Of a stretch of 64,000 nt of DNA, positions 637 to 36,709 are shown one piece after another. The translations under genes and the position numbers were made by a program. Every line of letters starts with the position of its first letter. The first letter of the stretch is position 1. The stretch comes from Actinophytocola sp. (GTDB lineage Bacteria; Actinomycetota; Actinomycetes; Mycobacteriales; Pseudonocardiaceae). The stretch is from NCBI RefSeq assembly GCF_049647105.1, contig NZ_JBARWZ010000147.1:10754-74753 (forward strand), in the 5' to 3' direction. The notes beneath the pieces were generated by a model. That model saw only the letters and a list, made by a program, of their open reading frames with translations, did not search any database and had not been told where the DNA came from.

Positions 637-1404
637 CTATCTCGGCGAACCCGCGGCAACCGACTGGGCGTGCGCGCGGAGCCTGGTGAGGATCTCCGGC
701 ACGATGTCGTTGAGGTAGAAGTGCCCGCCGGGGAACACGGACAGCTCGAAATCACTCTCGGTGTGCTCGCGCCACGCATCGGCCTCGGCGACCGTCACCT
801 TGGGATCGTTGTCGCCGGTGAGCGCGTAGATGGGGCAGCGGAGCTTCGGGCCGGGGCGGTGGGTGTAGGTCTCCGCGGCCGTGTAGTCGCCTCGGATCGC
901 CGGCATGACCATGGCCAGGACGTCTTCGTCGTCGAGCAGCTCGGCCTCGGTGCCGCCCAGCTGCTTCATGGCGGCGAGCAGACCGGCGTCGTCACGCAGG
1001 TGGATGCGCTCGACACGGGAGCGGTGTGGCGCGGGCCGGCCGGATGCAAACAGGGCGGTCGGTATGATACCGGACTGCTCCAGACGGCGGGCAACCTCGT
1101 AACCGAGTGTCGCGCCGAGGCTGTGGCCGAAGATCGTGAGCGGGCGGTCGGTCAGCGGCGCGATGGCCGCCGCCAGACCGTCGGCGAGGTCGTCGATCGA
1201 GCGCAGGACCGGCTCACGGCGCCGGTCCTGGCGGCCGGGGTACTGCACGGCCAGCACGTCGACCTCGGGCGCGAGTGCCCTGGAGACACCGAAGAAGTAA
1301 CTGGCCGAGCCGCCAGCGTGCGACAGGCACAGCAACTGGGTCTCGGCGTCATCCGCCGGATGGAACCGCCGCACCCACAGGTCGGTGTCGGTCATCTCGC
1401 TCAC
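637..1404 (-). CDS. Type II (editing) thioesterase, alpha/beta hydrolase
   Basis: 255-aa ORF with a GHSLGA nucleophile elbow and an N-terminal LLCLSHAGGSASYF motif typical of PKS/NRPS-associated TEII. The track start is GTG 1404. The ATG at 1395 lies 7 nt after GAGGTG and may be the real start. Confidence 0.9.
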   Translation of the reverse strand: MSEMTDTDLWVRRFHPADDAETQLLCLSHAGGSASYFFGVSRALAPEVDVLAVQYPGRQDRRREPVLRSIDDLADGLAAAIAPLTDRPLTIFGHSLGATLGYEVARRLEQSGIIPTALFASGRPAPHRSRVERIHLRDDAGLLAAMKQLGGTEAELLDDEDVLAMVMPAIRGDYTAAETYTHRPGPKLRCPIYALTGDNDPKVTVAEADAWREHTESDFELSVFPGGHFYLNDIVPEILTRLRAHAQSVAAGSPR

Positions 1405-1491
1405 CTCGGGATTTTCACAGGAAAAGGTGTCAACAGAGCAAACGGGCTCAACACCGGCCCCCGACCCGGTGTTGAGCCCGCACCTGTCGCC

Positions 1492-1677
1492 TCAGGAAAC
1501 GACGGTGCCGTTGCCCGCGGAGTGGCCGTCCGACCAGCTGATCGTGGTCGGGGCTACCGCGGTCAGACCGGAGTTGGTCCAGCTGTCCAGCACATCGATG
1601 CTGATGCTACCGGCGGCAGGCGCCTCGGCGCCGCTGAAGAAGAAGGAACGGAGAATCTCGCTCGTGGCGGTGGACAT
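1492..1677 (-). CDS. Small 61-aa hypothetical protein (Ser/Thr/Gly-rich C-terminal half, no Cys)
   Basis: ATG at 1677 is preceded by GAGGAGAC about 5 nt upstream; the longer 75-aa track ORF has no RBS. Third codon positions are almost all G/C, like neighbouring genes. Product MSTATSEILRSFFFSGAEAPAAGSISIDVLDSWTNSGLTAVAPTTISWSDGHSAGNGTVVS; no family recognised. It lies 87 bp upstream of, and co-oriented with, the thioesterase gene. Confidence 0.55.
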   Translation of the reverse strand: MSTATSEILRSFFFSGAEAPAAGSISIDVLDSWTNSGLTAVAPTTISWSDGHSAGNGTVVS

Positions 1678-1803
1678 GGGGAGTCTCCTCGGGGTTCGTT
1701 TTGCGAGAGCGGGGAGCAACCGCTGGTCTCAAATCTGCGCCATCAGGGTGGTCCGGGACAAGTTCCGTGCTCATCGTTCGCCTGGGTTTCTCACCCGGAC
1801 AAC

Positions 1804-1886
1804 CCGTGAATCGCTCATATCGACACTGAGCAACCGCCTTGCTACCGTGGGTGTCCGCTGTGGCGTCCCCGACCGTGAATCGCTCA
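1804..1886. promoter_or_regulatory. Two perfect copies of CCGTGAATCGCTCA (1804-1817 and 1873-1886) in the divergent promoter region
   Basis: Exact 14-bp direct repeat, 69 bp start to start, between the small-ORF/TEII operon and the SARP/PKS operon. The binding factor is unknown. Confidence 0.35.
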
Positions 1887-2015
1887 CCGCCACCGTTTCC
1901 GTTGTTCACACCGGAATGCGTGAGGTGGGACCGTTCCTCGAGGGCGTCCCGGGATGGAACCATTGCCGTGCCGACATTGCCGGCTGGGGGCATTTCCAGA
2001 CTCGGAGTAAAGCCC

Positions 2016-2789
2016 ATGAGGTTTTCTGTTCTCGGGAGTATCGAGGTCACGACCGACACCGCCCCACTCGAACTGGGCGGGGTCAAACAGCGTGCGATCC
2101 TCGGCTACCTCGTGCTCCACGCGAACAAGGTGGTGCCGACCAGCCGTCTGCTACAGGCCATGTGGGACGGTGTCCCGCCGCCGACCGCACGCAAGATGAT
2201 CCAGAACGCGGTGTCGGGGATCCGTCGTGTCCTCAATGGACCGCACGCCGAGGGCCCTTCGTCGCTGCGCACCCACCCGCCCGGCTACCAGCTGCACGTG
2301 GACACCGACTCCGTCGACCTGCACCGGTTCCGCGCGCTCGCACGGGACGGCAGGGCGGCCATCGCAGGCGGCGAACCGGAGCGGGGCGGTGAACTGCTGC
2401 GCTCCGCGCTGTCGCTGTGGCGCGGGCGTGCGCTCGCCGACCTGGTCGAGGCCGGCTACCGGTGGTCGGAGCTGACCGCCGTCGAGGACGAGCGTCTGTC
2501 CACTTTGGAGGATCGGCTGGACGCGGAGCTGGTGTGCGGCAGGCACCGGGAGATCACCCCGGAGCTGGAGGTGCTGACCGCGACCGAACCGCTGCGGGAA
2601 CGGCTGTGCCATCAGTTCATGCTGGCGCTCTACCGGTCCGGCAGGCAGGCGGACGCGCTGCGGGTCTACCGGCGCACCAGGGAGGCGCTGGTCGACAGCC
2701 TCGGCCTCGAACCGGGACGCGACCTCCAGGAGCTCCAGCAGCGGATTCTCGACCACGACGCCGCGATCCAGGCCGTCACCAGTAGTTGA
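2016..2789 (+). CDS. SARP-family transcriptional activator (winged-helix + BTAD)
   Basis: ATG 2016 has GGAG 8 nt upstream; the track start at 1839 is an unsupported extension. MRFSVLGSIEV...GGVKQRAILGYL is the OmpR-type DNA-binding domain. It is followed by a BTAD (LWRGRALADL ... LALYRSGRQADALRVYRRTREALVDSLGLEPG). Confidence 0.9.
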   Translation: MRFSVLGSIEVTTDTAPLELGGVKQRAILGYLVLHANKVVPTSRLLQAMWDGVPPPTARKMIQNAVSGIRRVLNGPHAEGPSSLRTHPPGYQLHVDTDSVDLHRFRALARDGRAAIAGGEPERGGELLRSALSLWRGRALADLVEAGYRWSELTAVEDERLSTLEDRLDAELVCGRHREITPELEVLTATEPLRERLCHQFMLALYRSGRQADALRVYRRTREALVDSLGLEPGRDLQELQQRILDHDAAIQAVTSS

Positions 2790-15909: not shown

Positions 15910-16425
15910 TCAGGTGAACAGCCAGCCGAACGCGGTGTGGGTCGCGAGTACCAGCAGTGCGCTCCACGTGGTCGCGCCGACCACCAGCCACACCAGCAAC
16001 CGCTGACGCGCCAAGCCGAGCGCGGACCCCAGCACCGCGGACACCCACGTCCCGAACAACGCGGGCCCGACCAGCCCGAAACCGGCAGGCCCGAACCGGG
16101 TCAGCACCCGGCGCGCCTTCTCCATCCTGGCCGCCCGCCGCACCGCGGCGCGCTCCGCGCGTTCTTCCGGATCCCCCTGACGACGGCGCCGCAGACGGCG
16201 GATGAGACGAACCAGCAGGAGATGACGGAAGACACGCAGCCGAGGACGTCGGCGCGCACGCAGCCACTCCATCGCGAACAACGCGATCACGAAGCTCGCC
16301 GCCGCGCTCGCCGACACCGCGAGCACCGTCGCCCAGGCAGGCAGCCGCAACGCAAGCCCGACCGGCGCGGCGGTGGACGGGCCCGCGAAGAAGCCGGTCA
16401 GCCACACAGACCAGAAGCGCCCCAC
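15910..16425 (-). CDS. Small integral membrane protein (small multidrug-export / COG2426-like)
   Basis: GTG 16425 lies 7 nt after AGGGAGG; the track start at 16497 would overlap the upstream gene. Several hydrophobic helices and an Arg-rich loop. GPALFGTWVSAVLGSALGL resembles the PxxGTGaWtGa motif of that family. Last gene of the SARP/ScoD/ScoC-like operon. Confidence 0.55.
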   Translation of the reverse strand: MGRFWSVWLTGFFAGPSTAAPVGLALRLPAWATVLAVSASAAASFVIALFAMEWLRARRRPRLRVFRHLLLVRLIRRLRRRRQGDPEERAERAAVRRAARMEKARRVLTRFGPAGFGLVGPALFGTWVSAVLGSALGLARQRLLVWLVVGATTWSALLVLATHTAFGWLFT

Positions 16426-16493
16426 GGCGACCTCCCTGAACAGCGCGGGAGGCGCGCCCGGACAACTCCAGGACGCGCCTCCCGCGGCAGGTC

Positions 16494-18062
16494 TCAACTC
16501 ACTCGGCGCTCTTCGCCTTGCCAGAAGCGCTCGCGCAGCTCGCGGCGCAGGATCTTGCCGCTCGGGTTGCGTGGCACCTTCTCGATGAACTCGTACCGCA
16601 GCGGCTGCTTGAACGTCGCCAGCTTGCCCGTGAGGAACAGGGCCAGCTCGCGCTCCGTCAACGTCTCGCCCTCGACCGGGACGACGAAGGCGTGCACGAT
16701 CTCGCCCCAGCGCTCGTCCGGGACGCCGACGACCGCGGACTCCGCGACCTTCTCGTGCTTGCCGATGACGTTCTCGATCTCGGCGGGGTACACGTTCTCG
16801 CCCGCGACGATGATCATGTCCTTGATGCGGTCGCGGATGAACAGGTAGCCGTCCTCGTCGAGGACGCCAGCGTCACCCGTCACGACCCAGCCGTCGACCA
16901 GCGTCTTCGCGGTGGCCTCCGGCAGGTTCCAGTACTCCAGCATCGCCGCGGGGGTACGCAGCCACACCTCGCCCACCTCACCGGCGGGCAGCGGGTTGCC
17001 ATCGGCGTCCGCGACCTTCACGTCGAAGCTCGGGTAGGCGCGGCCCGCGGCCTGCATCCGCCCGCTGTCCGGCGTGTGGTCGGCAGGCGGCAGGCACATC
17101 GCGGTGTTGCCGGTCTCCGTCAGCCCGTAGATCTGGGCGAACTCGCAACCGAACCCCTCGACGCACCTGGCGAGCAGCGCAGCGGAGATCGGGGCGCCGC
17201 CGTAGATGACCTTGCGCAGCGTGGTGAAGTCGTCCTTCGTCACGCCGGGCTCGGCGAGCAGGAGCCGCATCATCGCGGGCACCAGACATGCCGTCGTGAC
17301 GCCGAGTGTCCTGATCAGCTCCACCGCGCCCGCCGTGGTGAACTCCCGCATCACGACGTTGGTGGCACCCGCCGTGAAACCCTGCGTCGCCCACCAGATG
17401 CCGCCGATGTGGAAGCCCGCCATGCCGATGAGGCTGACATCCTCGGGGTAGAAGTCGATCCACTTCTCCCCGGCCTCGGCGAGTGCGTTGCGTACCGCGA
17501 AGAAGCTGCGGTGCCCGAGCACGACACCCTTCGGCAGTCCGGTGGTGCCGCTCGTGTACATCTGCACGAGCGGCGTGTCCGGCGTGACCCGGCCGAGCAC
17601 GTTCGTGTCCGGCTGCGCCGCCAGCCACGACGTGAACCCGGCGCCCGGCGCGTCCGGCGTGTCCAGCCGTACCACGGTGGTCAGCTGCGGCAGCTCAGGC
17701 GCGAGCCGGTCCGCAGTGGCCTCCGCCGCGGTGTCGGCGAACAGCACCGTGGTGCCCGAGTCGCGCAGGATGTGCTCGACCTCGTCGGCGGCGAGTCGCC
17801 AGTTGATCGGCACCAGCACGGCACCGCACTTCGCGGCGCCGAACAGCAGCTCGTAGTAGTGCTCGGACTCCTTGCCCAGGTAGGCGACGCGGTCACCCGC
17901 GCGGACACCGCCGGCCTGGAGGCCGTGCGCGACCTGGTTGCTCACCCGGTGCAGCCCGGCGTAGTCGGTCCGGCGACCCTCGCAGATCATCGCGACCGCG
18001 TCCGGCTGCTTCGCGGCATGGGCTCGCACCACGTCGACGAGCGTCCGCAACTGGGGTGCCAC
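16494..18062 (-). CDS. Fatty acyl-AMP / acyl-ACP ligase, FadD10/ScoC-like
   Basis: AMP-binding motifs YTSGTTGLPKGVVLGHRSFFAV, FHIGGIWW, YGLTETG, GWVVTGDAG and PSGKILRRELR. The RSFFAV..EAGEKWI and HIGGIWW segments match what I recall of M. tuberculosis FadD10. The best start is GTG 18062, preceded by AGGAGGA; the track start at 18080 is a TTG. Confidence 0.85.
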   Translation of the reverse strand: MAPQLRTLVDVVRAHAAKQPDAVAMICEGRRTDYAGLHRVSNQVAHGLQAGGVRAGDRVAYLGKESEHYYELLFGAAKCGAVLVPINWRLAADEVEHILRDSGTTVLFADTAAEATADRLAPELPQLTTVVRLDTPDAPGAGFTSWLAAQPDTNVLGRVTPDTPLVQMYTSGTTGLPKGVVLGHRSFFAVRNALAEAGEKWIDFYPEDVSLIGMAGFHIGGIWWATQGFTAGATNVVMREFTTAGAVELIRTLGVTTACLVPAMMRLLLAEPGVTKDDFTTLRKVIYGGAPISAALLARCVEGFGCEFAQIYGLTETGNTAMCLPPADHTPDSGRMQAAGRAYPSFDVKVADADGNPLPAGEVGEVWLRTPAAMLEYWNLPEATAKTLVDGWVVTGDAGVLDEDGYLFIRDRIKDMIIVAGENVYPAEIENVIGKHEKVAESAVVGVPDERWGEIVHAFVVPVEGETLTERELALFLTGKLATFKQPLRYEFIEKVPRNPSGKILRRELRERFWQGEERRVS

Positions 18063-18185
18063 GATGTCCTCCTGTGTCAATTTGGTCGCTTCGCTCCTCC
18101 GCTAAGCCACCGTCTTCCCTCCTGCGCGCGGAAGCCCCTGGGCTCGTACCTCGCGCAGGGACTTCCGTACTCCGAAAGGTGCTGG

Positions 18186-18800
18186 TCAGGCCGCGCGCAG
18201 CTTCATGCCAGGCGGGTCGACCAGTGCCATCCGGACCTCACCCTCGGCGTAGCCGCCGTTCTCGTCCCAGAAGCGCCACGGCATGTCGACCTTCAGGACC
18301 GGACGGCTGCGGTTGGTCTCGGCGAACTCGGCGAAGGACACCTCACCACTGAAGTCCGCCGAGTCGATCGGGCGCTTGAAGTTGCTGGAGAACCTCGCGA
18401 TGAGGATGTCCGGCAGCTGCTTGGCCCAGTAGTCCTCCATCGACCACGCGTCGAACGCGCTGAGCGCGCGCTCCTGCACGCACTTGGCGATCAGGTAGTA
18501 CATCAGCTGGTTGAAGCAGATGTTCACCTCGACCGAGTTGAGGTGGCCCGTGTCGTCGATGTAGCAGGGGAACGGGATGGCGAACCGGCCCTCCGCGCTC
18601 GCCAGCCCGTCCGACACCGCCACCGTCGCCGACTTCAGGTACTCGGTCTTCGGGCGCGCATAAGGGCGCAGTACGTCCGAGAGCAGTGCCGGGTCGTTGG
18701 CGAAGTTCGTTTCGCCGGAATTGTTGTTCGGCAATACTGTCATCATTTCCTCCTCGGCGCGCCCACGCGATTCGAATCGACCGTAATCGGTGCTGGTCAT
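18186..18800 (-). CDS. FcoT/ScoD-family hotdog-fold protein (Rv0098-like; glycine Michael-addition enzyme of isonitrile pathways)
   Basis: DTGHLNSVEVNICFNQLMY, SMEDYWAKQLPDILIARFSSNFKRP and FWDENGGYAEGEV correspond to the motifs I recall for Rv0098 (STGHFNAVELILCFNQLAY, FWDENGG). ATG 18800 overlaps the SARP stop (ATGA). The alternative ATGs at 18746/18743, just after GAGGAGGAA, give a 185-186-aa product closer to the family length. Confidence 0.85.
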   Translation of the reverse strand: MTSTDYGRFESRGRAEEEMMTVLPNNNSGETNFANDPALLSDVLRPYARPKTEYLKSATVAVSDGLASAEGRFAIPFPCYIDDTGHLNSVEVNICFNQLMYYLIAKCVQERALSAFDAWSMEDYWAKQLPDILIARFSSNFKRPIDSADFSGEVSFAEFAETNRSRPVLKVDMPWRFWDENGGYAEGEVRMALVDPPGMKLRAA

Positions 18801-19933
18801 CCCCCGGTAACAGCGGACGAATTGTCGCGCCGCCGCGGCTGCTGACCGGACCGCACGAGCCGGTCGAGCAGCATGTCGGAGGTGAGCGACCGGTCGGCCA
18901 GCACCGGGTCGGTCGACAGCAGGGCCATGTGCAGCGCCCGGATCCGGTCGGATGGCTCGATGCCCAGCTCGTGCAGCATCCGCTGCCGGAAGCGCATGAA
19001 GACCTCCAGCGCGGCGGACGCCCGGCCCGCCCGGTACAGCGCGATCATCAGCATCGTGTGGGCCGACTCGTGCAGCGGGTGCTCGACGACGAGCGAGGCC
19101 AGCTCGCTGATCATCTCACGGTGCCTGCCGATGCACAGGTCCGCGTCGATCCTGGTGGTGTGCGCGTAGAACCGGCGCTCCTCCAGTCGTGCGACCTGGG
19201 CCCGCAGAAGGGTTCCCCACTGTCCATGATGGACCACGTTGCCGCGCCACAGGGCCAGCGAGCGCCGCAGGTCGGTGGCGGCCTTGTCGTAGTCGCCTGC
19301 GTGCATCGCGGCCGAGCCCGCCGTGACCAGCTGATCGAACTCGGTGATGTCGAGCTGCTGCGGGTCGACCCGCAGCACGTAACCACCGGAGCAGGTCTGC
19401 AGCACGTCGCTGGTGATGTACTCGACGGACAGGCCGAGCACGGAACGGAATAGCCTGCGCAGCTTGAACATGTAGGTCTGCAGCGTCGAGTGCGCGGTGC
19501 GTGGGGCGCCGTCACTCCACAGCTCCCGCGCCAGCACGGACGCGCCGACCGGCTTGTTGGCGTTGAACAGCAACGTGGACAGGATCAGCCGCAGCTTCGG
19601 CGCGCTCGGCGCCACGTCCAGTTCCCCGTGCCGGATGACCAGCGGTCCGAGCAGTTCGAAGCGCAGGTCGGCGAGCGGGTTCTGCTCGGGGGTGCGGGGT
19701 CGCACCAGCGTGTTGGCCTCGGCGGCCGTGTCCTCGTCGGGTCCGGGGGGTGATGTCGTCTCCAGGAGAGTCGCGAGGAGGGCGAGCTTCTCCTCGTGCG
19801 TCATCATTCCCAGCTCATCTAATTTGGTAACCATTTTCGGGACCTCGCTATCAGCCAGATCCACCGCACTTTCCGCCGCCGACGGGGTGTACCGGCGGGA
19901 TAGTCCCGGCAGGATGCGACGATCGGTGAACAT
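18797..19933 (-). CDS. SARP-family regulator with about 95-aa N-terminal extension
   Basis: LRFELLGPLVIRHGELDV...KLRLILSTLL winged helix plus BTAD (LWRGNVV..., ALYRAGRASAALEVFMRFRQRMLHELGIEPS). The start is uncertain: ATG 19933 has a poor RBS, while ATG 19834 (MVTKLDEL) has GAGG 9 nt upstream. Confidence 0.85.
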   Translation of the reverse strand: MFTDRRILPGLSRRYTPSAAESAVDLADSEVPKMVTKLDELGMMTHEEKLALLATLLETTSPPGPDEDTAAEANTLVRPRTPEQNPLADLRFELLGPLVIRHGELDVAPSAPKLRLILSTLLFNANKPVGASVLARELWSDGAPRTAHSTLQTYMFKLRRLFRSVLGLSVEYITSDVLQTCSGGYVLRVDPQQLDITEFDQLVTAGSAAMHAGDYDKAATDLRRSLALWRGNVVHHGQWGTLLRAQVARLEERRFYAHTTRIDADLCIGRHREMISELASLVVEHPLHESAHTMLMIALYRAGRASAALEVFMRFRQRMLHELGIEPSDRIRALHMALLSTDPVLADRSLTSDMLLDRLVRSGQQPRRRDNSSAVTGG

Positions 19934-20073
19934 GGATATCAGGACATCATCACGGTATTCCGAGGCGGCGCCGTGCCGATAGTGACGCCGTCATAAATGG
20001 GCAGTGAGTAACCGAGATGCAGCACATGAGTGGTGCACTTGTCCAGTAGTACGTGCGCGACGCACGCTTGGGC

Positions 20074-20102
20074 TCAAGCGAGGCTCAAGCGGCGGTCAAG
20101 TG
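20074..20102 (+). promoter_or_regulatory. Three 11-bp-phased heptamers TCAAGCG / TCAAGCG / TCAAGTG
   Basis: Heptamers at 20074, 20085 and 20096, one mismatch from the SARP-box consensus TCGAGCG. They end 1 nt before the RBS GAGGAGA (20104-20110) of the YcaO gene, so their position is atypical for a SARP-activated promoter. Confidence 0.3.
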
Positions 20103-20114
20103 CGAGGAGAAGTC

Positions 20115-22451
20115 ATGACCACCTCAAGCAAGGAGAGCGGGCTACGCATCGGGTTCAAGCGGCACCTGCGGGCACACGTCGTCCGCGGGGAGGCGGTGTA
20201 CCTGCTCTCCGAGCGTGACGCGACCTCCGTGGCGGGTGCGCACGTCGAGGCGCTCGCTCCACTCCTCGACGGCAGCCGTGACCTGGCGGAACTGTGCCGG
20301 GACATCCCCGATGGGCTGACACTGGCGGAGGCGGGCTCGGTCGTGACGAGCCTCGTCGACGCCGGGCTGGTGGCGCTGCGTGAGCCCACCGAGGACGCCG
20401 ACCCGCCGAGCCTCGCCTACTGGGAGGCCGCTGGCCTTGAGCCAGCGGGGGTCGTGCGCACGGTGCGGAACACGTCGGTCTCGACGATCTTCCTCGGCGC
20501 CGACGACGGCGCCGACGACGGCATCGACGCCGTCACCGCGACCGCCGCCCTGCGCGCCGCCGGGCTGACCACCGTCCCCGGCAGTGCCGACCGGCTCACC
20601 GACGACACCGCCCTGTCGGTCGTGCTGTGCGAGGACTACCTCGACCCGGCGCTGCCCCGCATCGACGCACTGCACCGCGCGGCGGGCCGCCCGTGGCTGC
20701 TCGCGAAGCCGGGTGGCACACAGGTGTGGATCGGGCCGTTCTTCGGACGGCGGGAAGACGACCAGGAACACGAGCCCGCCGCCTGCTGGCACTGTCTCGC
20801 GCACCGGCTGCGCGGCCACCGCCAGGCCGAGACGCACCTGCGGACCAGGCTCGACCACCAGGTCCCGCTCATCCCGCCCTCGGTGTCGCTGCCGCCGCTC
20901 GGCGCGGCCGCGATGCACCTCGTCGCGCTGGAGGCGGTCAAGTGGGTCGCCGGCATGCGCACCGAGAGCCAGCGCGCGGTGTGGACGCTCGACAGCCTCG
21001 ACCTGAGCGGTCGCCGCCACGAGCTGCCGGCGCGCCCCCAGTGCCCGTCGTGCGGGGATTCCGGCCTCATGAGCGAGCAGGCGCGCCGCCCGGTCACCAT
21101 CGAGCACCGGAACAAGACCAGCCGCTCCGGCGGCGGGCACCGGTCGAGCCCGCCGGAGGACGTGCTCGCCGCCCACGAGCACCTGATCAGCCCGGTCACC
21201 GGCATCCTCAAGGAGATCACGAAGGACTCGCGCGGCCCGTCGTTCTTCAACTCCTTCCGCGCAGGGCCCAACCTCGCGCTGAACGCGCGCAGGCACTTCG
21301 ACCACCTGCGCTCGGCCCGCGCGGAGAACGGCGGCAAGGGCATCACCCCGCTGCACGGCAAGGTGAGCGCGCTGTGCGAGGCGATCGAGCGGCACAGCGG
21401 CTACTTCCACGGCGACGAGGAACGTGTCGTCGCGAGCTATGCGCAGCTCGGCGACGACGCCGTGCACCCGCGCGAATGCCTGCTGTTCGACGAGCGCCAG
21501 TACGCAGGCCGCGCGGAGTGGAACTCGACGCACTCTTCGTTCCAGTACGTGTGCGAGCCGTTCGACGAGCACGCGGTGACCAGCTGGACGCCGGTGTGGT
21601 CGCTCACGCAACAGCGGCATCGCCTCCTGCCGACCGGGATGCTGTACTTCGACGTCCCCGCCGAGCACGGCGGCGGCGGCTCGCTTTCTGCCGACTCGAA
21701 CGGCAACGCGGCGGGCAGCAGCCTGGAGGACGCGTTGCTCCAGGGCCTTTTCGAGGTGGTCGAGCGCGACGCGGTCGCGCTGTGGTGGTACAACCAGACC
21801 AGAGCGCCTGGGGTCGACCTCGACAGTTTCGGGGTGCGCTGGATCGATGAGTTGCGTGCGGTGTACGCGGCTCTCCATCGCGACGTCTGGGTGCTGGACG
21901 TGTCCTCGGACGTTGGGATTCCAACCATGGCCGCGCTGTCTCGTCGCACCGACGGGTCGCCAGAGGACGTCATGTTCGGATTCGGGGCACACCTCGATCC
22001 GCAGGTGGCGCTGATCCGCGCGCTCACCGAGATGAACCAGTTGATGCCGGCGGTCGTGTCAGCTCGCGACGGTGAAGACTACGACTGGTCCGACCCCGAC
22101 GCCGTGCACTGGTGGCGCACCGCCACCTGGGACGGCATGCCGTACCTGCGGCCAGATCCCGCGGTGCGGCCACGCACACCCGCCGACTACGCGCACGTCC
22201 CCACCACGGACCTCCACCAGGACATCACCGATGTCCAGCGGCGGCTGGAACGACTGGGTCTCGACGTCATGGTCCTCGACCAGACCCGCCCCGACGTCGG
22301 GCTCCCCGTGGTGAAGGCGATAGTGCCGGGTATGCGGGGCTTCTGGGCGCGCTTCGCGCCCGGCAGGATGTTCGACGTGCCCGTCCGGCTCGGCCGTCTC
22401 GACGCGCCGACGCCGTACGAGCAGTTGAATCCGATCCCACTATTCGTGTGA
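20115..22451 (+). CDS. Fused E1/ThiF-like leader-binding domain + YcaO cyclodehydratase (TOMM/LAP azoline-forming type)
   Basis: ATG 20115 lies 4 nt after GAGGAGA; the track start at 20004 is an extension. The N-terminal half has two CxxC pairs (CWHCL, CPSCG) as in E1-like docking domains. The C-terminal YcaO half has GKG.T...A...ALCEAIERHSG, NGNAAGSSLEDALLQGLFEVVERDA and a proline-rich C-terminal tail NPIPLFV. Confidence 0.9.
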   Translation: MTTSSKESGLRIGFKRHLRAHVVRGEAVYLLSERDATSVAGAHVEALAPLLDGSRDLAELCRDIPDGLTLAEAGSVVTSLVDAGLVALREPTEDADPPSLAYWEAAGLEPAGVVRTVRNTSVSTIFLGADDGADDGIDAVTATAALRAAGLTTVPGSADRLTDDTALSVVLCEDYLDPALPRIDALHRAAGRPWLLAKPGGTQVWIGPFFGRREDDQEHEPAACWHCLAHRLRGHRQAETHLRTRLDHQVPLIPPSVSLPPLGAAAMHLVALEAVKWVAGMRTESQRAVWTLDSLDLSGRRHELPARPQCPSCGDSGLMSEQARRPVTIEHRNKTSRSGGGHRSSPPEDVLAAHEHLISPVTGILKEITKDSRGPSFFNSFRAGPNLALNARRHFDHLRSARAENGGKGITPLHGKVSALCEAIERHSGYFHGDEERVVASYAQLGDDAVHPRECLLFDERQYAGRAEWNSTHSSFQYVCEPFDEHAVTSWTPVWSLTQQRHRLLPTGMLYFDVPAEHGGGGSLSADSNGNAAGSSLEDALLQGLFEVVERDAVALWWYNQTRAPGVDLDSFGVRWIDELRAVYAALHRDVWVLDVSSDVGIPTMAALSRRTDGSPEDVMFGFGAHLDPQVALIRALTEMNQLMPAVVSARDGEDYDWSDPDAVHWWRTATWDGMPYLRPDPAVRPRTPADYAHVPTTDLHQDITDVQRRLERLGLDVMVLDQTRPDVGLPVVKAIVPGMRGFWARFAPGRMFDVPVRLGRLDAPTPYEQLNPIPLFV

Positions 22452-22456
22452 ACGTG

Positions 22457-23950
22457 ATGTATTACGCGGGCGGCGTGTGCATGCACACCGAGGAGCGACA
22501 AGTGCCATCCGAAACCGGCACTCCACCCGACGTGAGCCTTCCCCTGTGGTCCTTCAGGGACGACGTGGTCATCGAGCCTGCTGCGGGCGGCAGCCTGATC
22601 GTGCTGACCCGATGGGGAGATGTCCTGGTGGACTCGCCCGCGCCGGCGATCGTGGACAGCCTGTACCGGATGACGCTGGGACCGGTCGAGCTCACGAACG
22701 TCGACGGCCTTGACCGCGACGACCTGCTCACCGTGCTCGCACGGTTGCCGGGCTGCGTCGTGCGGTCGCTCGGCCTGAAGGAGACGGCGACACCGCTGCT
22801 GTCGGCGGTGCCCCTCTCGCCAGGCGATGTCCTCGAACTGCCCGGCATCGACGACAAACAGCCGGTCCGGCTGTCCCGGTTCGCGATCGTCCGGGAGACC
22901 GGCGGGGAGCTGGTGGTCGAGTCGCCGCTGTCGCACCACCGGGTCGTCCTGCACCGGCCGCTGACCACGTGGGTGGTCGGCGCGCTCGGACGGCCGACCA
23001 CCGCGAGTGCCATCGCGCAGGGCATCAACGTGACCAGGGGCCTGATGACCGAGATGCTCGCCTACCTCGTGGCCACCGGGATGGTCGTGACCGGCGAGAC
23101 CGGCCGCGCTAGACCCGTCTTCGCCGAGGACACCGACCCCGATCTGCGCACCTGGTCCCCGCACGATCTCCTGTTCCACTCCCGCAGCAGGCTCGGCAGG
23201 CACGACGACGCCGCGGGGGCGGCGTTTCGCAACGTGTCCGACCTGCCGCCACTGCCCGTCGTGCGGCCGGTGCCCGCAGGCACCCGGTTCCCGCTGCACC
23301 AACCGGATCTGTCCGTGCCCGCGCCGGGCGAGCTGTCGCTGACCGAGGCCGTCGAACAGCGGCACTCGGTGCGCGAGTTCGCCGACGACGGCCCCTCCGT
23401 GCATCAGCTCGGCGAATTGCTGTTCCGGACCGCGCGGGTCCGCTCGCAGACCGAGGCGGTCGGCGCGGGCGGGGTGCGCTACCGCGTCTCGGAGCGCCCG
23501 TACCCGAGTGCCGGGTCGCTGTACGAGCTGGACCTGTACCTCACCGTGGACCGCTGCGACGGCCTGCCGCGCGGGATCTACCACTACGACCCGGAAGGCC
23601 ACGCGCTCACGCTCGTCAACGAGAACGCCGCGCACGCGGACGAGTTGCTCGACAGCGCGATGGTGCAGCTGGGGACGAGCGGGCGACCGCCGACGCTCAT
23701 CACGATGACCGCCAGGATGGGCAGGCTGTCGTGGGTGTACGACGGCATCGCCTACGCGACGACGCTCAAGCACGTCGGCGTACTGCAGCAGACGATGTAC
23801 CTGGTCGCGACGATGCTGGGGCTCGCACCGTGTGCGGTCGCGACCGGCGACAGCGAGATGGCGACGGCCGCGTTCGGGCTCGACTGGCCCGCCGAGGTCA
23901 GCGTCGGCGAATTCGTCGTGGGGCTGCCGCTTACCCAGGTTCCGTCATGA
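22457..23950 (+). CDS. SagB-type FMN-dependent (nitroreductase-fold) dehydrogenase with N-terminal extension
   Basis: RPYPSAGSLYELDLYL, GIYHYDP.GH.L and ATTLKHVGVLQQTMYLVATMLGLAPCAV are typical of SagB/ThcOx-type azoline oxidases. The start is ambiguous: GTG 22448 (GTGA overlap with the YcaO stop), ATG 22457, ATG 22481, or GTG 22502 (6 nt after GAGGAG). The stop at 23950 is firm. Confidence 0.85.
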   Translation: MYYAGGVCMHTEERQVPSETGTPPDVSLPLWSFRDDVVIEPAAGGSLIVLTRWGDVLVDSPAPAIVDSLYRMTLGPVELTNVDGLDRDDLLTVLARLPGCVVRSLGLKETATPLLSAVPLSPGDVLELPGIDDKQPVRLSRFAIVRETGGELVVESPLSHHRVVLHRPLTTWVVGALGRPTTASAIAQGINVTRGLMTEMLAYLVATGMVVTGETGRARPVFAEDTDPDLRTWSPHDLLFHSRSRLGRHDDAAGAAFRNVSDLPPLPVVRPVPAGTRFPLHQPDLSVPAPGELSLTEAVEQRHSVREFADDGPSVHQLGELLFRTARVRSQTEAVGAGGVRYRVSERPYPSAGSLYELDLYLTVDRCDGLPRGIYHYDPEGHALTLVNENAAHADELLDSAMVQLGTSGRPPTLITMTARMGRLSWVYDGIAYATTLKHVGVLQQTMYLVATMLGLAPCAVATGDSEMATAAFGLDWPAEVSVGEFVVGLPLTQVPS

Positions 23951-24108: not shown

Positions 24109-24714
24109 ATGATCAAGGTCATGCTGGCCGAGGACATGCACATGGTCCGCGGAGCCCTCGTCGCGCTGCTCAACCTCGAGCCCGACATCGAGGTGGTGGC
24201 CGAGGTCTCCAACGGCACCGACATCCTGGCCACCGCACAGAAGTTCAGACCGGACGTCGCCGTGGTCGACATCGACCTGCCCGGCAAGGACGGACTGACC
24301 GCGGTCGGCGAGGTCCACGAGCACCTGCCGGAGATCCGGACACTGATCCTCACCGGGCTCGGCAGGCCGGGGAACCTGCGCCGCGCGTTGTCGGCGAAAG
24401 TGGCGGGCTTCCTGCTCAAGGACGCGCCACCGGCCCAGCTGGCCGACGCCATCCGCAGTGTGGCGGCGGGACAACGGGTCGTCGACAGCCAGCTCGCGAT
24501 GGCGGCGTGGGACAGCGCGGAATGCCCGCTGACCGCACGGGAGACCGAGGTGCTCCGCCTCACCGCGGAAGGGTTGCAGGCAGTCGACATCGCGTCACGC
24601 CTGTTCCTGTCGGTCGGCACCGTCCGCAACTACCTGACGACGGTCATCGGCAAGCTCGCCGCCCGCAACCGCGTCGACGCGATCCGCATCGCCCGCGAAG
24701 CGGGCTGGCTCTGA
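24109..24714 (+). CDS. NarL/LuxR-family response regulator
   Basis: MIKVMLAEDMHMVRGAL...VVDIDLPGKDGL receiver domain plus a C-terminal LuxR HTH (LTARETEVLRL...VGTVRNYLTTVIGKL). GGAGG lies upstream of ATG 24109. The in-frame upstream extension has poor GC3. Confidence 0.9.
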   Translation: MIKVMLAEDMHMVRGALVALLNLEPDIEVVAEVSNGTDILATAQKFRPDVAVVDIDLPGKDGLTAVGEVHEHLPEIRTLILTGLGRPGNLRRALSAKVAGFLLKDAPPAQLADAIRSVAAGQRVVDSQLAMAAWDSAECPLTARETEVLRLTAEGLQAVDIASRLFLSVGTVRNYLTTVIGKLAARNRVDAIRIAREAGWL

Positions 24715-24797: not shown

Positions 24798-25958
24798 TCA
24801 GCGGTCCATGCGCAGCGGGACATCCACCTTGAGCCGGAACATGTTCGGCTCGTGTTCCACCGTCACCGAACCGCCGATCTCCCCTGCCCGCACCGACAGG
24901 TTGTGAAGCCCGCTACGACCACGATCCTCAGGCACCTTCGGATTCGGCTGCACATCGTCGTTGACGATCTCCAACATCGCCCGATCGTGAGACTGAAGAA
25001 TCGTTATCTCACAGTGCTTCGCCTTGCTGTGCCGTAACAGGTTCGTCACGCCTTCCCGCAACACCGTCGCGAGCACCGTGCTCACCCGAACCGGCAGATC
25101 AGTGTGGTCACTGTCCAGCTTCACACTGATGTCAGCCGCCTCCAGCACCGACACCGCCGACCGGCACTCGTCCTCCAGCGACAACTCCCGGTAGCCGGTC
25201 GCCACCGTCCGCGCGTCGGACAACGCCAGCCGGGAGATATCCAGGATCTCCAGTAACTGGTCACTCGCCTCCTGCGGCGACTTCTCCAGCAACCGATGCG
25301 TCAACTCGATCTTCAGGGTTATCGCCGAAAGGCTGTAACCAAGCAGATCATGCAGGTCACGCGCGAACCGCAGCCGCTCACGCAACACCGCCATCCTCGC
25401 GATCTCCGCACGCGTCGACTGCACCTCGACAACCAACGCCGTCAACCTCGACAACCCGTAGACCACCAACCCCGTGGTCACCGTCGAGATCGACGTGTAC
25501 AAGATGTCCACCGGCGTACCAGTGAACATCAACTGCGCAAACCCCATACTTGCGACGATCAGCGAAAACGCCGCCCACGCCGCGACCGGCCGCAGCACCA
25601 ACAGCACGCTCCCGGCCAGGAACCCCGGCATACCCACCCACGCCTGACCGAAGACCAGAATGGGGAGGTAGACCAGACATGCCTGTGCCGCGAGGATCCC
25701 GTAGCCGAGCCGCGACCGCAGCGGCGCGTTCGACCGGCCATACCACAACAGTTGCATCACCAGTAGCGCGACGATACAGCCGAACGACAGCACGATCTCG
25801 CCCACACCGATGGGCAGGAACAGCACGTGCAGGAACCCGATCAGGCTGATGCTGACGAAAACCGCGGTGACCACGCCGACCGCGAGACGCGGGGCGGGGA
25901 ACGAGACGGTTCTGTCTCCTTCGGACGTCAGGTGTCCTGGTGTGGTGGAGGAGTCCAT
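24798..25958 (-). CDS. Membrane sensor histidine kinase, HisKA_3 (DesK/NarX-like)
   Basis: The N-terminal half is multi-spanning hydrophobic. It has the phospho-acceptor box RFARDLHDLLGYSLSAI and an HATPase region (LREGVTNLLRHSKA, GSGLHNL). Visibly lower GC than its neighbours. Confidence 0.9.
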   Translation of the reverse strand: MDSSTTPGHLTSEGDRTVSFPAPRLAVGVVTAVFVSISLIGFLHVLFLPIGVGEIVLSFGCIVALLVMQLLWYGRSNAPLRSRLGYGILAAQACLVYLPILVFGQAWVGMPGFLAGSVLLVLRPVAAWAAFSLIVASMGFAQLMFTGTPVDILYTSISTVTTGLVVYGLSRLTALVVEVQSTRAEIARMAVLRERLRFARDLHDLLGYSLSAITLKIELTHRLLEKSPQEASDQLLEILDISRLALSDARTVATGYRELSLEDECRSAVSVLEAADISVKLDSDHTDLPVRVSTVLATVLREGVTNLLRHSKAKHCEITILQSHDRAMLEIVNDDVQPNPKVPEDRGRSGLHNLSVRAGEIGGSVTVEHEPNMFRLKVDVPLRMDR

Positions 25959-26545: not shown

Positions 26546-27121
26546 CTATCGCCTCGCCGCGGGGGTGCTCCGCAGGCCGAGTCCGAGCGCCTCGACCAGC
26601 TCCCGGCGGGCCCGCGCGACGCGGGACCTGATGGTCCCGACCGGACACCCGCAGACCTGGGCCGCCTCCGCGTACCCCATCCCGAGCACCTGCGTCAGCA
26701 CGAAGGCGTCGCGCCGGTCTCCCGCCAGCGTCCTGACCGCGAGGTTGATCGATACCGTGTCGTCGATCCCCGGCAGGCCGGACATGACGCGCTCGTCGGC
26801 GGCCGCCTGCCAGTCCGCGTCGGCGGCGATCTTCGGCCGGGTCGCGGCGGCGCGGAAGTGGTCGGCGGCCACCCGGCGCGCGATGGAGAGCAGCCAGGTG
26901 CGCGCGTGGCTGCGTGCGGTGAACCGGTGTGCGCTCCCCAGCGCCCGCACGAACGTCTCCTGCGTGAGGTCCTCGGCCTCCGACGCGCCCGCCAGATAGA
27001 CGAGAAACCGCCAGACGTCACGCTGCGTGCTCCGGATAAAAGCGTTCGCCGCGTCGCGGTCACCGCGCCCGGCGGCAAGTGCCAATTCGGTGATCGTCTC
27101 GTCCGCAGCTAAGTCCGCCAT
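26546..27121 (-). CDS. ECF (group IV) sigma-70 factor, SigC-like by recollection
   Basis: ATG 27121; the track start at 27343 is an extension. Region 2 (DLTQETFVRALGS..RF.ARS.ARTWLLSIARR) and region 4 (AQVCGCPVGTIRSRVARARREL) are present. The VWRF..YL and VCGCPVGTIRSRVARAR blocks match what I remember of mycobacterial SigC. This needs BLASTP confirmation. Confidence 0.85.
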   Translation of the reverse strand: MADLAADETITELALAAGRGDRDAANAFIRSTQRDVWRFLVYLAGASEAEDLTQETFVRALGSAHRFTARSHARTWLLSIARRVAADHFRAAATRPKIAADADWQAAADERVMSGLPGIDDTVSINLAVRTLAGDRRDAFVLTQVLGMGYAEAAQVCGCPVGTIRSRVARARRELVEALGLGLRSTPAARR

Positions 27122-27209
27122 GAATAGGACGGTACGCACCGAAATGCCGTGGCAGAACTGGTGAGAGCGCGATTCCAGCGAACCTCGTGCCGATAATTGA
27201 AGACCTGCT

Positions 27210-27238
27210 GGAACCGGGCACCGGATGTGCCCGACTAC
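27210..27238 (+). promoter_or_regulatory. Candidate ECF-type promoter GGAACC-N16-CGACTAC(T) for the anti-sigma gene (leaderless)
   Basis: -35 GGAACC at 27210-27215, a 16-nt spacer, and CGACTAC at 27232-27238. The GTG start is at 27245, only 6 nt after the -10 block. The same motif with the same spacing occurs at 37690-37718 on the minus strand. Confidence 0.6.
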
Positions 27239-27244
27239 TAGTAC

Positions 27245-36693: not shown

Positions 36694-36709
36694 TGCCCCG
36701 CTTGAGCCG

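What the first reader, a model, noticed from the sequence alone, without database searches (positions are those of the whole stretch)
20115..23950. RiPP-type azole machinery (fused E1-YcaO + SagB dehydrogenase) with no precursor gene, embedded in a PKS/NRPS/isonitrile cluster
Seen: a 778-aa protein whose E1/ThiF-like docking half (CWHCL and CPSCG pairs) is fused to a YcaO domain ending in the proline-rich tail NPIPLFV. The next gene abuts or overlaps its stop and encodes a SagB-type nitroreductase-fold dehydrogenase (RPYPSAGSLYELDLYL).
Established: such pairs cyclodehydrate and oxidise Cys/Ser/Thr of ribosomal precursor peptides (LAP/TOMM).
Unusual: the 182-bp upstream gap and the 158-bp downstream gap hold no short Cys/Ser/Thr-rich ORF, and I found none within many kb. 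Instead the pair is flanked by a SARP gene and a response-regulator gene and sits between the two halves of the isonitrile pathway.
Possible explanations: a remote precursor (1492-1677 or outside the window), an unrelated RiPP cluster nested here, or action on a carrier-bound or non-ribosomal substrate. The last would be new biochemistry as far as I know.
Basis: partly seen in the sequence, partly recalled or inferred. Interest (0 to 1): 0.75.

Follow-up and report, generated by a model that had tools for sequence, protein, structure and literature searches.

The report
Azole RiPP pair with displaced precursor
The azole-forming enzyme pair is real, but it is not an orphan: its small precursor-peptide gene sits 18 kb away behind the same promoter signature, so this is an ordinary ribosomal-peptide pathway, in an uncharacterised regulator-linked cassette nested in an isonitrile/polyketide cluster.

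Summary
20115-22451 encodes an intact fused RRE/E1-like-YcaO cyclodehydratase, a full-length homologue of the cyanobactin heterocyclases LynD, MusD and TruD. 22457-23950 encodes a SagB/ThcOx-type oxidase. The pair sits between ScoC/ScoD and ScoB/ScoE.

The claim of "no precursor" does not hold. It has an IxIDxLD-type leader motif. Its Thr45 and Ser47 align with the Cys-x-Cys of the relatives. It also has a ribosome-binding site and a strong hairpin after its stop codon.

A three-box promoter element, including the palindrome RTGA-N5-TCAY, occurs only twice in the 64-kb window: before YcaO and before this small gene. The palindrome is about 100-fold enriched in such promoters across genera.

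The conserved unit is precursor + YcaO (± SagB) + HisKA_3 kinase + LuxR-type regulator, usually with a SARP. It recurs inside different biosynthetic clusters. Action on carrier-bound substrates is therefore unlikely. A cluster-situated peptide-signal role is plausible but untested. No paper in the held library describes this family.

The parts
1492..1677 (-). Precursor peptide gene (61 aa): MSTATSEILRSFFFSGAEAPAAGSISIDVLDSWTNSGLTAVAPTTISWSDGHSAGNGTVVS. It has a leader with an ISIDVLD motif, a conserved core AVAPTTISW(S/C)DG and a variable C-terminal tail.
   Evidence: It is the only six-frame hit in the window to an HMM of the precursor family (E 1e-17). It aligns with the precursors next to YcaO in L007 and L016, with T45 and S47 opposite Cys-x-Cys. 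Among 33 distinct homologues, AVAPTTISW is invariant or nearly so (at least 90% identical in every column), while the tail varies. Codon comparison gives 13-17 synonymous against 15-22 non-synonymous codon differences between orthologues. A GAGGAG ribosome-binding site lies 9 nt before the ATG.
1437..1489 (-). Strong hairpin directly after the precursor stop codon, before the thioesterase gene. It looks like an attenuator or terminator.
   Evidence: Minimum free energy is -43.2 kcal/mol against -25.0 +/- 2.8 for shuffles (z = -6.4); 0 of 200 shuffles fold as well.
637..1395 (-). Type II thioesterase (252 aa), downstream of the precursor in the same orientation. Its role in the peptide pathway is unknown.
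   Evidence: PF00975, E 3e-54. The sORF-TEII pair is conserved in L043, L044, L045 and L055. The ATG is at 1395-1393.
1756..1887 (-). Promoter/operator region shared by the precursor gene and the divergent SARP1 gene. It holds three RTGAS boxes followed by ACTTGTCC (1756-1818), and palindromes GTGAATCGCTCAT (1806-1818) and GTGAATCGCTCAC (1875-1887).
1830..2789 (+). SARP1 regulator, divergent from the precursor gene and followed by the PKS. By comparison with L043, the true start is probably near 2025.
   Evidence: PF03704 BTAD, E 3e-46. The L043 orthologue was called as 254 aa.
18797..19933 (-). SARP2 regulator, divergent from the YcaO gene.
   Evidence: PF03704 BTAD, E 1e-40. A SARP gene lies beside the precursor/YcaO unit in most related loci.
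19982..20044 (+). Promoter/operator region before YcaO: GTGACGCCGTCAT palindrome, then GTGAG, then ATGAG-N6-ACTTGTCC.
   Evidence: These blocks are invariant in 8 orthologous intergenic regions that are otherwise variable and not coding. The three-box pattern is found only here and at 1770-1818 in the window; simulated mean is 0.13.
20115..22451 (+). Fused RRE/E1-like-YcaO cyclodehydratase (778 aa).
   Evidence: It aligns end to end with LynD (4v1t, E 1e-151), MusD and TruD. The N-terminal winged-helix match PF21084 is sub-threshold (20 bits, cut-off 24).
22457..23950 (+). SagB/ThcOx-type FMN-dependent azoline oxidase.
   Evidence: TIGR03605 and PF22767. It matches CyaGox 5lq4 at E 5e-61 over nearly the full length.
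24109..24714 (+). NarL/LuxR-type response regulator of the cassette.
   Evidence: PF00072 and PF00196. It is 63-74% identical to the regulators beside the YcaO genes of Streptomyces and Actinokineospora, higher than any other cassette protein.
24798..25958 (-). HisKA_3 sensor kinase with a multi-pass membrane N-terminus and no large loop.
   Evidence: PF07730. The nearest NCBIfam families are LiaS/MctS/NarQ/MadS-type kinases, all far below cut-off. The hydropathy profile supports the membrane topology. A kinase is adjacent to YcaO in every actinomycete locus long enough to show it.

Best explanation
The pair is the modifying machinery of a ribosomal peptide whose precursor gene has been moved 18.4 kb away, to 1492-1677(-).

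Shown:
- Both enzymes are intact.
- The 61-aa gene belongs to the peptide family encoded immediately upstream of this YcaO clade in other actinomycetes.
- The YcaO operon and the precursor gene carry the same conserved promoter element.
- The conserved unit is precursor + RRE/E1-YcaO (± SagB) + HisKA_3 kinase + LuxR-type regulator, usually with a SARP. It is found inside unrelated biosynthetic clusters.

Inferred:
- The N-terminal winged-helix/E1-like half binds the leader around ISIDVLD.
- The YcaO domain uses ATP to cyclodehydrate Thr45 and Ser47, and perhaps Thr44 and Ser49, to (methyl)oxazolines.
- The oxidase converts these to oxazoles. An unidentified peptidase trims the leader and the variable tail.

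My estimate that this precursor-enzyme pairing is right is about 0.8.

More speculative, about 0.3: the small azole peptide is a cluster-situated signal. It would be sensed in the membrane by the kinase. The phosphorylated regulator, or the SARP, would bind the RTGA-N5-TCAY / RTGAS boxes in the two divergent promoter regions. That would switch on the peptide genes and both SARP genes together, and through the SARPs the PKS/isonitrile genes.
For: Enzymes:
- Searches show full-length matches to LynD/MusD/TruD and to CyaGox, with the EAxER and ERD motifs and the Pro-rich C-terminus conserved.
- MusD, which processes the Ser/Thr-derived oxazoles of muscoride (from memory, not tested here), is among the top structural-database hits. 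This fits a core without Cys.

Precursor family:
- Ten Streptomyces loci have a small ORF ending a few nt to a few tens of nt before the YcaO start. It carries an LVIEDLD-type motif followed 9-13 residues later by Cys.
- L007 and L016 have EI(T/A)IDRFDHW...C(S/T)C precursors.
- A profile of these peptides finds the window ORF and 90 database proteins, and 109 representatives in the larger library.
- The window has exactly one family member.

Intermediate layouts:
- L055 (YcaO 67% identical) has sORF-TEII about 2 kb from YcaO.
- L052 (71% identical) has a precursor beside SARP2-YcaO-SagB-RR and a ScoB gene.

Gene quality:
- Ribosome-binding site, hairpin and a purifying-selection pattern.

Co-regulation:
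- The three-box element occurs only at 19982-20030 and 1770-1818.
- The same architecture lies upstream of sORFs or precursors in L043, L044, L055, L007, L052, L016 and the Streptomyces loci.
- The palindrome is present in 28 of 30 promoter windows, at 5.2 per kb against 0.048 per kb background.

Cassette:
- Kinase and regulator lie beside YcaO in all sampled actinomycete loci long enough to show them. Hosts range from a type II PKS cluster (L049), an AfsA/KSIII/P450 cluster (L047) and a TPP-decarboxylase/PEP-utiliser neighbourhood (L092, L093) to the isonitrile cluster here.
- The regulator is the best conserved cassette protein.
Against: - No modified peptide has been observed. The pairing rests on homology, synteny in relatives and shared cis-elements.
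- Direct similarity between the window peptide and the Cys-type precursors is weak pairwise (E 0.02-0.09 in a small database). It becomes convincing only through the profile and the intermediate loci.
- The core has no Cys, and Ser49 is Ala in one homologue, so the modified residues are uncertain.
- No leader peptidase or dedicated exporter was identified.
- The promoter motif was defined after looking at the two sites, so its within-window statistics are inflated. Many of the 30 promoters are orthologous and not independent.
- Nothing shows whether the response regulator or a SARP binds the boxes.
- The precursor always travels with a type II thioesterase and the PKS, which the signalling model does not explain.
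Confidence: 0.65

Rival explanations
1. The cassette is an independent, self-contained RiPP cluster, for example for an antibiotic or metal-binding azole peptide. It happens to be inserted in the isonitrile/PKS cluster. The kinase and regulator would serve only its own autoinduction or immunity, with no cross-talk to the host cluster.
For: - The same cassette occurs in unrelated genomic settings, two of them without a PKS or NRPS within 10 kb.
- The three-box element is absent from all other promoters of the window.
- HisKA_3/LuxR pairs next to peptide antibiotic genes commonly act in autoinduction or immunity. This is established for lantibiotics such as nisin, and I state it from memory.
Against: - In every Actinophytocola genome sampled, the cassette keeps the same place between ScoC/D and ScoB/E.
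- The precursor lies on the far side of the PKS.
- Both operator regions are shared with divergent SARP genes, one of which heads the PKS operon.
- A SARP gene lies beside the precursor/YcaO unit in most loci.
Confidence: 0.3
2. One reading: the YcaO/SagB pair acts on a carrier-bound or otherwise non-ribosomal intermediate of the PKS/NRPS/isonitrile line.
For: - The pair is embedded in the cluster, and no precursor lies in the adjacent gaps.
- The PKS has an unusual A-linker-T loading module.
Against: - The leader-binding half is complete and conserved.
- A cognate, co-regulated precursor exists.
- Relatives 45-60% identical have precursors directly upstream and no Sco genes.
- Streptomyces cassettes sit in quite different pathways.
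Confidence: 0.04
3. A ribosomal-peptide/polyketide hybrid: the processed azole peptide is joined to the polyketide or isonitrile acyl chain, in the manner of lipolanthines, goadvionins or lipoavitides.
For: - The precursor gene is always next to the type II thioesterase and the A-PKS gene (window, L043, L044, L045).
- Hybrid RiPP lipopeptides are documented (bioRxiv 10.1101/2023.10.25.564083, listed).
Against: - No GNAT-type or other candidate peptide acyltransferase was found in the window.
- The cassette occurs without any PKS in L092 and L093.
- In the Streptomyces loci the precursor is not next to a thioesterase, except in L008.
Confidence: 0.06
4. The small ORF is not a substrate, and the enzyme pair is a decaying remnant.
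For: In Actinokineospora soli, both the YcaO and SagB genes are split into two called genes.
Against: - In the window and in the related Actinophytocola-type loci long enough to show them (L001-L007, L051-L053), both genes are full length at 61-88% identity (YcaO 56% and SagB 46% in the most divergent, L007).
- The peptide shows a purifying-selection pattern.
- The A. soli splits may be errors of a long-read assembly.
Confidence: 0.03

Closest known systems
Cyanobactin heterocyclase/oxidase pairs (PatD, TruD, LynD, MusD with ThcOx/CyaGox)
   Same: The three-domain architecture is the same: winged-helix leader-binding domain, E1-like domain with a Zn-type Cys pair, and YcaO domain with a Pro-rich C-terminus. 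The match runs the full length, with tblastn identities of 35-44% to cyanobacterial homologues and E about 1e-150 to the PDB structures. The oxidase has the ThcOx N-terminal domain plus a nitroreductase fold. Leader recognition by a short acidic motif upstream of the core is analogous.
   Different: There are no PatA/PatG-type proteases and no sign of macrocyclisation. The precursor is unrelated to PatE and has a single core. The host is an actinomycete. The unit is coupled to a two-component system and a SARP. In the window the precursor is 18 kb away and has no Cys.
Linear azol(in)e-containing peptides / TOMM systems, including the TIGR04351 'TOMM_nitrile_2' putative precursors
   Same: The components are a fused cyclodehydratase, a SagB dehydrogenase and a leader-core precursor. 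The long Streptomyces precursors of this family have a nitrile-hydratase-like N-terminal leader that matches TIGR04351 below threshold (39 bits, cut-off 65).
   Different: The window precursor lacks that N-terminal part and matches no curated family. There are only one to four modifiable residues, not an azole-rich core. The Streptomyces members have no dehydrogenase.
Peptide autoinduction circuits of lantibiotics (e.g. nisin NisRK; from memory)
   Same: A modified ribosomal peptide is encoded beside a membrane kinase and a response regulator. A conserved operator lies in the precursor promoter.
   Different: The peptide class and kinase family differ. Sensing is not shown. Here the operators are shared with SARP genes that head a polyketide/isonitrile pathway.
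Isonitrile lipopeptide pathway ScoA-E / Rv0096-0101 (the host cluster)
   Same: ScoE passes its equivalog cut-off. There are ScoD-like, ScoC-like and ScoB-like genes, and metal-transport genes lie alongside.
   Different: The NRPS ends in a thioesterase domain, whereas ScoA ends in a reductase domain (the ScoA architecture is from memory). A two-module PKS is present. The Sco genes are split into two blocks by the peptide cassette and regulators.

Membership tests
Azol(in)e-forming RiPP machinery (TOMM/LAP type) | YcaO cyclodehydratase domain with nucleotide-binding motifs and a Pro-rich C-terminus | tested here: met
   PF02624 at 348 bits and TIGR03604 at 262 bits (cut-off 219). The CEAIERHSG and VERD motifs and NPIPLFV align with LynD.
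Azol(in)e-forming RiPP machinery (TOMM/LAP type) | E1-like/RRE partner that binds the leader peptide | tested here: met
   It is fused at the N-terminus. TIGR03882 gives 134 bits (cut-off 37). The alignment to LynD starts at residue 14. The PF21084 winged-helix match is sub-threshold but is listed for many homologues.
Azol(in)e-forming RiPP machinery (TOMM/LAP type) | FMN-dependent SagB dehydrogenase | tested here: met
   TIGR03605 at 160 bits (cut-off 78), plus PF22767 and PF00881. CyaGox matches at E 5e-61.
Azol(in)e-forming RiPP machinery (TOMM/LAP type) | Genetically encoded precursor with a leader and a Cys/Ser/Thr core | tested here: met
   1492-1677(-) is homologous to precursors adjacent to YcaO in relatives. 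It shares the promoter element, and its core is PTTISWS. It is 18.4 kb away rather than adjacent.
Azol(in)e-forming RiPP machinery (TOMM/LAP type) | Azol(in)e rings actually installed in the peptide | not testable with these tools
   This needs mass spectrometry of the co-expressed peptide.
Cyanobactins | PatD/LynD-type fused heterocyclase | tested here: met
   4v1t, 7u58 and 4bs9 match at E 1e-149 to 1e-151.
Cyanobactins | PatA and PatG subtilisin-like proteases (N-terminal cleavage and macrocyclisation) | tested here: not met
   No subtilisin-type peptidase appears among the Pfam-annotated genes of the window or in the called genes of L047, L049 and L092-L094.
Cyanobactins | PatE-like precursor with recognition sequences RSI-RSIII | tested here: not met
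   The window peptide matches no Pfam or NCBIfam family. Its leader motif ISIDVLD is only analogous to RSI.
TIGR04351 TOMM_nitrile_2 precursor family | Score above the curated cut-off (65 bits) | tested here: not met
   The window peptide has no hit. The Streptomyces relative P0138 scores 39 bits.
Isonitrile lipopeptide pathway (context only) | ScoE-type Fe/2OG oxygenase-decarboxylase and ScoD-type glycyltransferase | tested here: met
   ScoE matches NF049937 at 461 bits (cut-off 400). ScoD matches NF049938 at 213 bits, below its cut-off of 250, and PF10862 at E 2e-57.
Peptide-pheromone / autoinduction circuit | Two-component system genetically linked to the peptide genes | tested here: met
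   Kinase and regulator lie beside YcaO in all sampled actinomycete loci long enough to show them.
Peptide-pheromone / autoinduction circuit | The mature peptide is exported and activates the kinase, and the regulator binds the precursor promoter | not testable with these tools
   Only a conserved operator-like element is shown. No exporter or peptidase was identified.

The most novel reading that the evidence does not exclude
The cassette (precursor, YcaO ± SagB, membrane kinase, LuxR-type regulator, SARP) is a portable peptide-signal switch for secondary metabolism in actinomycetes. The azol(in)e peptide would be sensed by the kinase. The regulator would act on the RTGA-N5-TCAY boxes in divergent SARP/peptide promoters, and so turn on whichever host cluster the cassette sits in. 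Here that is an isonitrile-polyketide metallophore-type pathway.
Probability: 0.25. Interest if true: 0.75.

Novelty: new variant of a known kind. Interest (0 to 1): 0.42.

Why it matters
The suggested new biochemistry, a YcaO acting on carrier-bound intermediates, can be set aside. This saves a misdirected experimental effort.

What remains is a sizeable, uncharacterised actinomycete family, with at least about 100 precursor representatives. It consists of cyanobactin-type heterocyclase cassettes hard-wired to a two-component system and usually a SARP, with a conserved operator, and it recurs inside different biosynthetic clusters.

If the peptide is a signal, this would be a peptide-based, cluster-situated control layer beside the known butyrolactone signals. 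It would also give a practical handle for waking silent clusters.

The finding is also a concrete example of why RiPP mining that looks only next to the enzyme misses precursors. Here the shared promoter element finds the precursor.

Tried and rejected
- The in-frame extension upstream of YcaO (20004-20114, containing 'WCTCP') is not a fused or adjacent precursor. The stretch is conserved as DNA but carries stops and frame changes in L001, L004 and L006. It is promoter and 5' leader sequence.
- I looked for other small ORFs in all intergenic regions of the window, using GC3 and Cys/Ser/Thr content. Nothing convincing turned up besides 1492-1719. HMM and regex scans for a second, Cys-type precursor like those of L052 and L055 found none.
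- No PatA/PatG-type protease or other RiPP enzyme is in the window. The C39-like peptidase at 57497-58162 is 34 kb away and was not pursued.
- The DUF6059 small protein that accompanies the Streptomyces cassettes is absent from the window.
- The two small genes upstream of the L092/L093 cassettes look like halves of a TPP-dependent decarboxylase. They are absent from the window.
- L005 (YcaO 70% identical) shows no precursor within the 10 kb available, and its contig ends just after SagB. This is unresolved.
- Six full-text literature searches found no description of this cassette or its peptides. They covered YcaO with isonitrile, hybrid lipopeptides, kinase/SARP, cyanobactin heterocyclase in Streptomyces, TOMM with SARP, and the leader motifs as strings.
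- Rfam found only the ASpks matches inside the KS-coding DNA.
- I could not model a leader-enzyme complex, because chimeric sequences are not accepted by the structure tool.

Full report
**Setting.** The window has about 70% G+C. Its genes are 70-98% identical to Actinophytocola genomes. The gene map below comes from a GC3-filtered ORF scan and from Pfam and NCBIfam.

| Coordinates | Gene |
|---|---|
| 1-609+ | MerR |
| 637-1395- | type II thioesterase (TEII) |
| 1492-1677- | small ORF (sORF) |
| 1830-2789+ | SARP1 |
| 2833-15681+ | 4283-codon PKS: A-linker-T, KS-AT-DH-KR-T, KS-AT-DH-KR-T |
| 16494-18080- | ScoC-like acyl ligase |
| 18186-18800- | ScoD/FcoT-like |
| 18797-19933- | SARP2 |
| 20115-22451+ | YcaO fusion |
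| 22457-23950+ | SagB |
| 24109-24714+ | LuxR-type response regulator |
| 24798-25958- | HisKA_3 kinase |
| about 26.5-32.6 kb | ECF sigma/anti-sigma pair; ABC, FecCD, binding-protein and MFS transport genes |
| 32473-36429- | C-A-T-TE NRPS |
| 36305-36583- | ScoB-like carrier protein |
| 36710-37732- | ScoE (461 bits, equivalog cut-off 400) |
| from 38182 | hydrolase, Cu P-type ATPase with two HMA domains, YtkA-like gene, siderophore-interacting protein |

**The two enzymes.** The 778-aa protein has the leader-binding/E1-like half (TIGR03882, residues 192-365) and the YcaO half (PF02624 and TIGR03604, both above cut-off).
- It aligns end to end with the cyanobactin heterocyclases LynD, MusD and TruD (E 1e-149 to 1e-151). 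The alignment includes the N-terminal winged-helix region and the Pro-rich C-terminus.
- The next gene starts 5 or 29 nt after the YcaO stop. It is a ThcOx/CyaGox-type oxidase (TIGR03605, PF22767; 5lq4 at E 5e-61).
- Both genes look functional.

**Is there a precursor?** The adjacent gaps are indeed empty. The in-frame stretch upstream of the YcaO start, which contains WCTCP, is conserved as DNA. It is interrupted by stops and frame changes in orthologues, so it is not coding.

The answer came from relatives.
- In ten Streptomyces loci (YcaO 44-50% identical), a small ORF ends a few nt to a few tens of nt before the YcaO start. It carries an LVIEDLD-type motif followed 9-13 residues later by Cys, for example ...SLVIEDLDGAGQCDVALFSICIVSV....
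- An Actinophytocola MAG (L007, 56% identical) and Actinokineospora soli (L016, 60% identical) have ...EITIDRFDHWTNSDTPAAVAMCSCNV... and ...EIAIDRFDHWDGSALIGQAMVCTCTG... in the same place.
- The window ORF at 1492-1677(-) reads MSTATSEILRSFFFSGAEAPAAGSISIDVLDSWTNSGLTAVAPTTISWSDGHSAGNGTVVS. It aligns with these peptides, with ISIDVLDSWTNS against ITIDRFDHWTNS. Thr45 and Ser47 fall on the two Cys columns.
- Pairwise the similarity is weak (E 0.02-0.09 in a roughly 1-Mb database). A profile of the family retrieves the window ORF with 90 database proteins and 109 representatives in the larger library.
- An HMM scan of all six frames finds exactly one member in the window, this ORF (E 1e-17).

**Is the ORF a real gene?** Several lines say yes.
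- Thirty-three distinct homologues keep AVAPTTISW invariant or nearly so (at least 90% identical in every column). The last roughly ten residues vary freely, and Ser49 is S, C or, once, A.
- Orthologues differ by 13-17 synonymous codons.
- A GAGGAG ribosome-binding site precedes the ATG.
- A -43 kcal/mol hairpin (z = -6.4) follows the stop codon, before the thioesterase gene. Hairpins of this kind are common after RiPP precursor genes (from memory).

**Intermediate layouts link the ORF to the enzyme.**
- In metagenome locus L055 (YcaO 67% identical) the order is TEII, sORF (...RIDVLDSWKLSELAPVTPTTVTMNN...), SARP2, YcaO, all within about 3 kb. A second, Cys-type precursor lies further on.
- In L052 (71% identical) a precursor (...ELAIDRFEQWTNPRGTVLTCTSSYWPG...) lies beside SARP2-YcaO-SagB-RR, with a ScoB gene nearby.
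- In A. glycyrrhizae, the sORF-TEII pair and the YcaO gene are on one contig about 23 kb apart, arranged as in the window.

**Shared promoter.** The SARP2-YcaO intergenic region has invariant non-coding blocks in eight orthologues.
- The element ATGAG-N6-ACTTGTCC occurs twice in the window, 70-80 nt upstream of the YcaO ATG and of the sORF ATG. Chance expectation is 0.03.
- Three RTGAS boxes about 22 nt apart also occur only at these two places; simulated mean is 0.13.
- I defined the pattern after seeing the two sites, so independent support matters. The same architecture precedes the sORF in L043, L044 and L055. It also precedes the precursor in L007, L052, L016 and all ten Streptomyces loci.
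- The boxes include a 13-nt palindrome, RTGA-N5-TCAY. It is present in 28 of 30 promoter windows of 220 nt, at 5.2 per kb against 0.048 per kb elsewhere in the same loci.
- In the window, three of its six occurrences lie in the two divergent SARP/peptide promoter regions.

**The conserved unit.** Every sampled actinomycete locus long enough to show it has a HisKA_3 kinase and a LuxR-type regulator beside the YcaO gene. Most also have a SARP.
- SagB is present in the Pseudonocardiaceae members and absent from the Streptomyces ones.
- The regulator is the best conserved protein: 63-74% identical, against 44-50% for YcaO, 39-45% for the kinase and 38-42% for the SARP. This fits a conserved operator.
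- The kinase has about five hydrophobic segments and no large loop. It falls nearest the LiaS/MctS/NarQ/MadS-type kinases, well below their cut-offs.
- The host context differs between loci: type II PKS genes (L049), an AfsA/KSIII/P450 set (L047), acyl-carrier/ligase genes (L094), TPP-decarboxylase-like and PEP-utiliser genes (L092, L093), and the isonitrile cluster here. This argues against a catalytic role on one particular carrier-bound intermediate.

**Interpretation.** The pair is the modifying machinery of a ribosomal peptide whose gene has been displaced.
- I infer leader binding around ISIDVLD. ATP-dependent cyclodehydration of Thr45 and Ser47 (perhaps also Thr44 and Ser49) would follow, and then oxidation to oxazoles.
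- MusD is a precedent for a Ser/Thr-only substrate in this enzyme lineage (its chemistry is from memory).
- Trimming and export are unexplained.
- It is not a cyanobactin. No PatA/PatG proteases are present, and the precursor is unrelated to PatE.
- Only the long Streptomyces precursors touch a curated family (TIGR04351), and then below threshold.

The function of the product is open.
- The linkage to a membrane kinase, a regulator, a conserved operator and SARP genes fits a cluster-situated peptide signal with positive feedback. So does the placement of both operators in promoters shared with SARP genes. I rate this at about 0.3.
- A self-contained nested RiPP cluster is about equally likely.
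- A peptide-polyketide hybrid is possible but weakly supported, because no acyltransferase candidate was found.

**Literature.** Six full-text searches found nothing on this cassette, its peptides, or any YcaO-isonitrile link. As far as the held library shows, the family is uncharacterised. NCBI names the enzyme 'TOMM precursor leader peptide-binding protein' and one relative's peptide 'putative TOMM peptide'.

**Verdict.** The enzymes are real and the biochemistry is most likely conventional. The absence of a precursor was apparent only. The residual interest lies in the regulator-coupled cassette and its possible signalling role.

Noticed in passing
window 6685-6753(-) and 11602-11670(-): Two Rfam ASpks matches (72 and 68 bits) lie antisense to the two KS-coding regions of the PKS. 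This probably reflects conserved KS-coding sequence rather than an sRNA gene.
   Followed up: no
window 2833-15681(+), residues about 500-890 of the PKS: The loading module is A, then a roughly 390-aa linker, then T. The linker gives only a sub-threshold KR fragment (E 2e-4) here. The orthologue in L043 is listed with a SpnB_Rossmann hit. It may be a degenerate ketoreductase and so an alpha-keto/hydroxy-acid starter. The PKS has no terminal thioesterase.
   Followed up: partly
window 32473-43652: The isonitrile genes (ScoE, ScoB, C-A-T-TE NRPS) are followed by a Cu P-type ATPase with two HMA domains, a YtkA-like gene and a siderophore-interacting protein. They are preceded by FecCD/binding-protein/ABC/MFS transport genes. 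This looks like a chalkophore/metallophore-type cluster. The NRPS ends in TE, whereas ScoA ends in a reductase domain (from memory).
   Followed up: partly
L047 9569-9781(-), L049 1657-1884(-), and L009-L013, L035, L041: A 70-75-aa DUF6059 gene accompanies the Streptomyces versions of the cassette. In several loci it is directly divergent from the precursor. It is absent from the window.
   Followed up: partly
L093 (= L016), Actinokineospora soli, 10186-13980 and 14047-18646: The YcaO and SagB genes are each called as two pieces, which may be frameshifts or long-read assembly errors. Three HisKA_3 kinase genes follow in a row.
   Followed up: no
L055 831-1049(-) and 2510-2695(-): One short metagenome contig carries two precursor types beside one YcaO gene: a Thr-only type (TPTTVT) next to the thioesterase, and a Cys type (ATSCCLNS).
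   Followed up: partly
L092 7734-8827(-), L093 8464-9527(-): Two adjacent small genes are conserved upstream of the cassette in L007 and L016. They resemble the two halves of a TPP-dependent (sulfo/phosphono)pyruvate decarboxylase, and in L092 they lie next to a PEP-utilising enzyme. CMD/AhpD-like genes follow the regulator.
   Followed up: no
window 26546-27916: An ECF sigma factor and a zf-HC2 anti-sigma gene overlap by about 100 nt. They are conserved next to the kinase in all Actinophytocola loci of this type. Their relation to the cassette or to the isonitrile genes is unknown.
   Followed up: no
window 57497-58162(+): A Peptidase_C39_2 family gene lies 34 kb from the YcaO gene, next to a Na/H exchanger gene with a zf-UBP tail. 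It is probably unrelated to the peptide pathway.
   Followed up: no
window 15910-16497(-): A 195-aa membrane protein has a weak 'small multidrug export' match. It overlaps the ScoC stop and is conserved in L001-L003 at 75-81% identity. It could be an exporter candidate.
   Followed up: no
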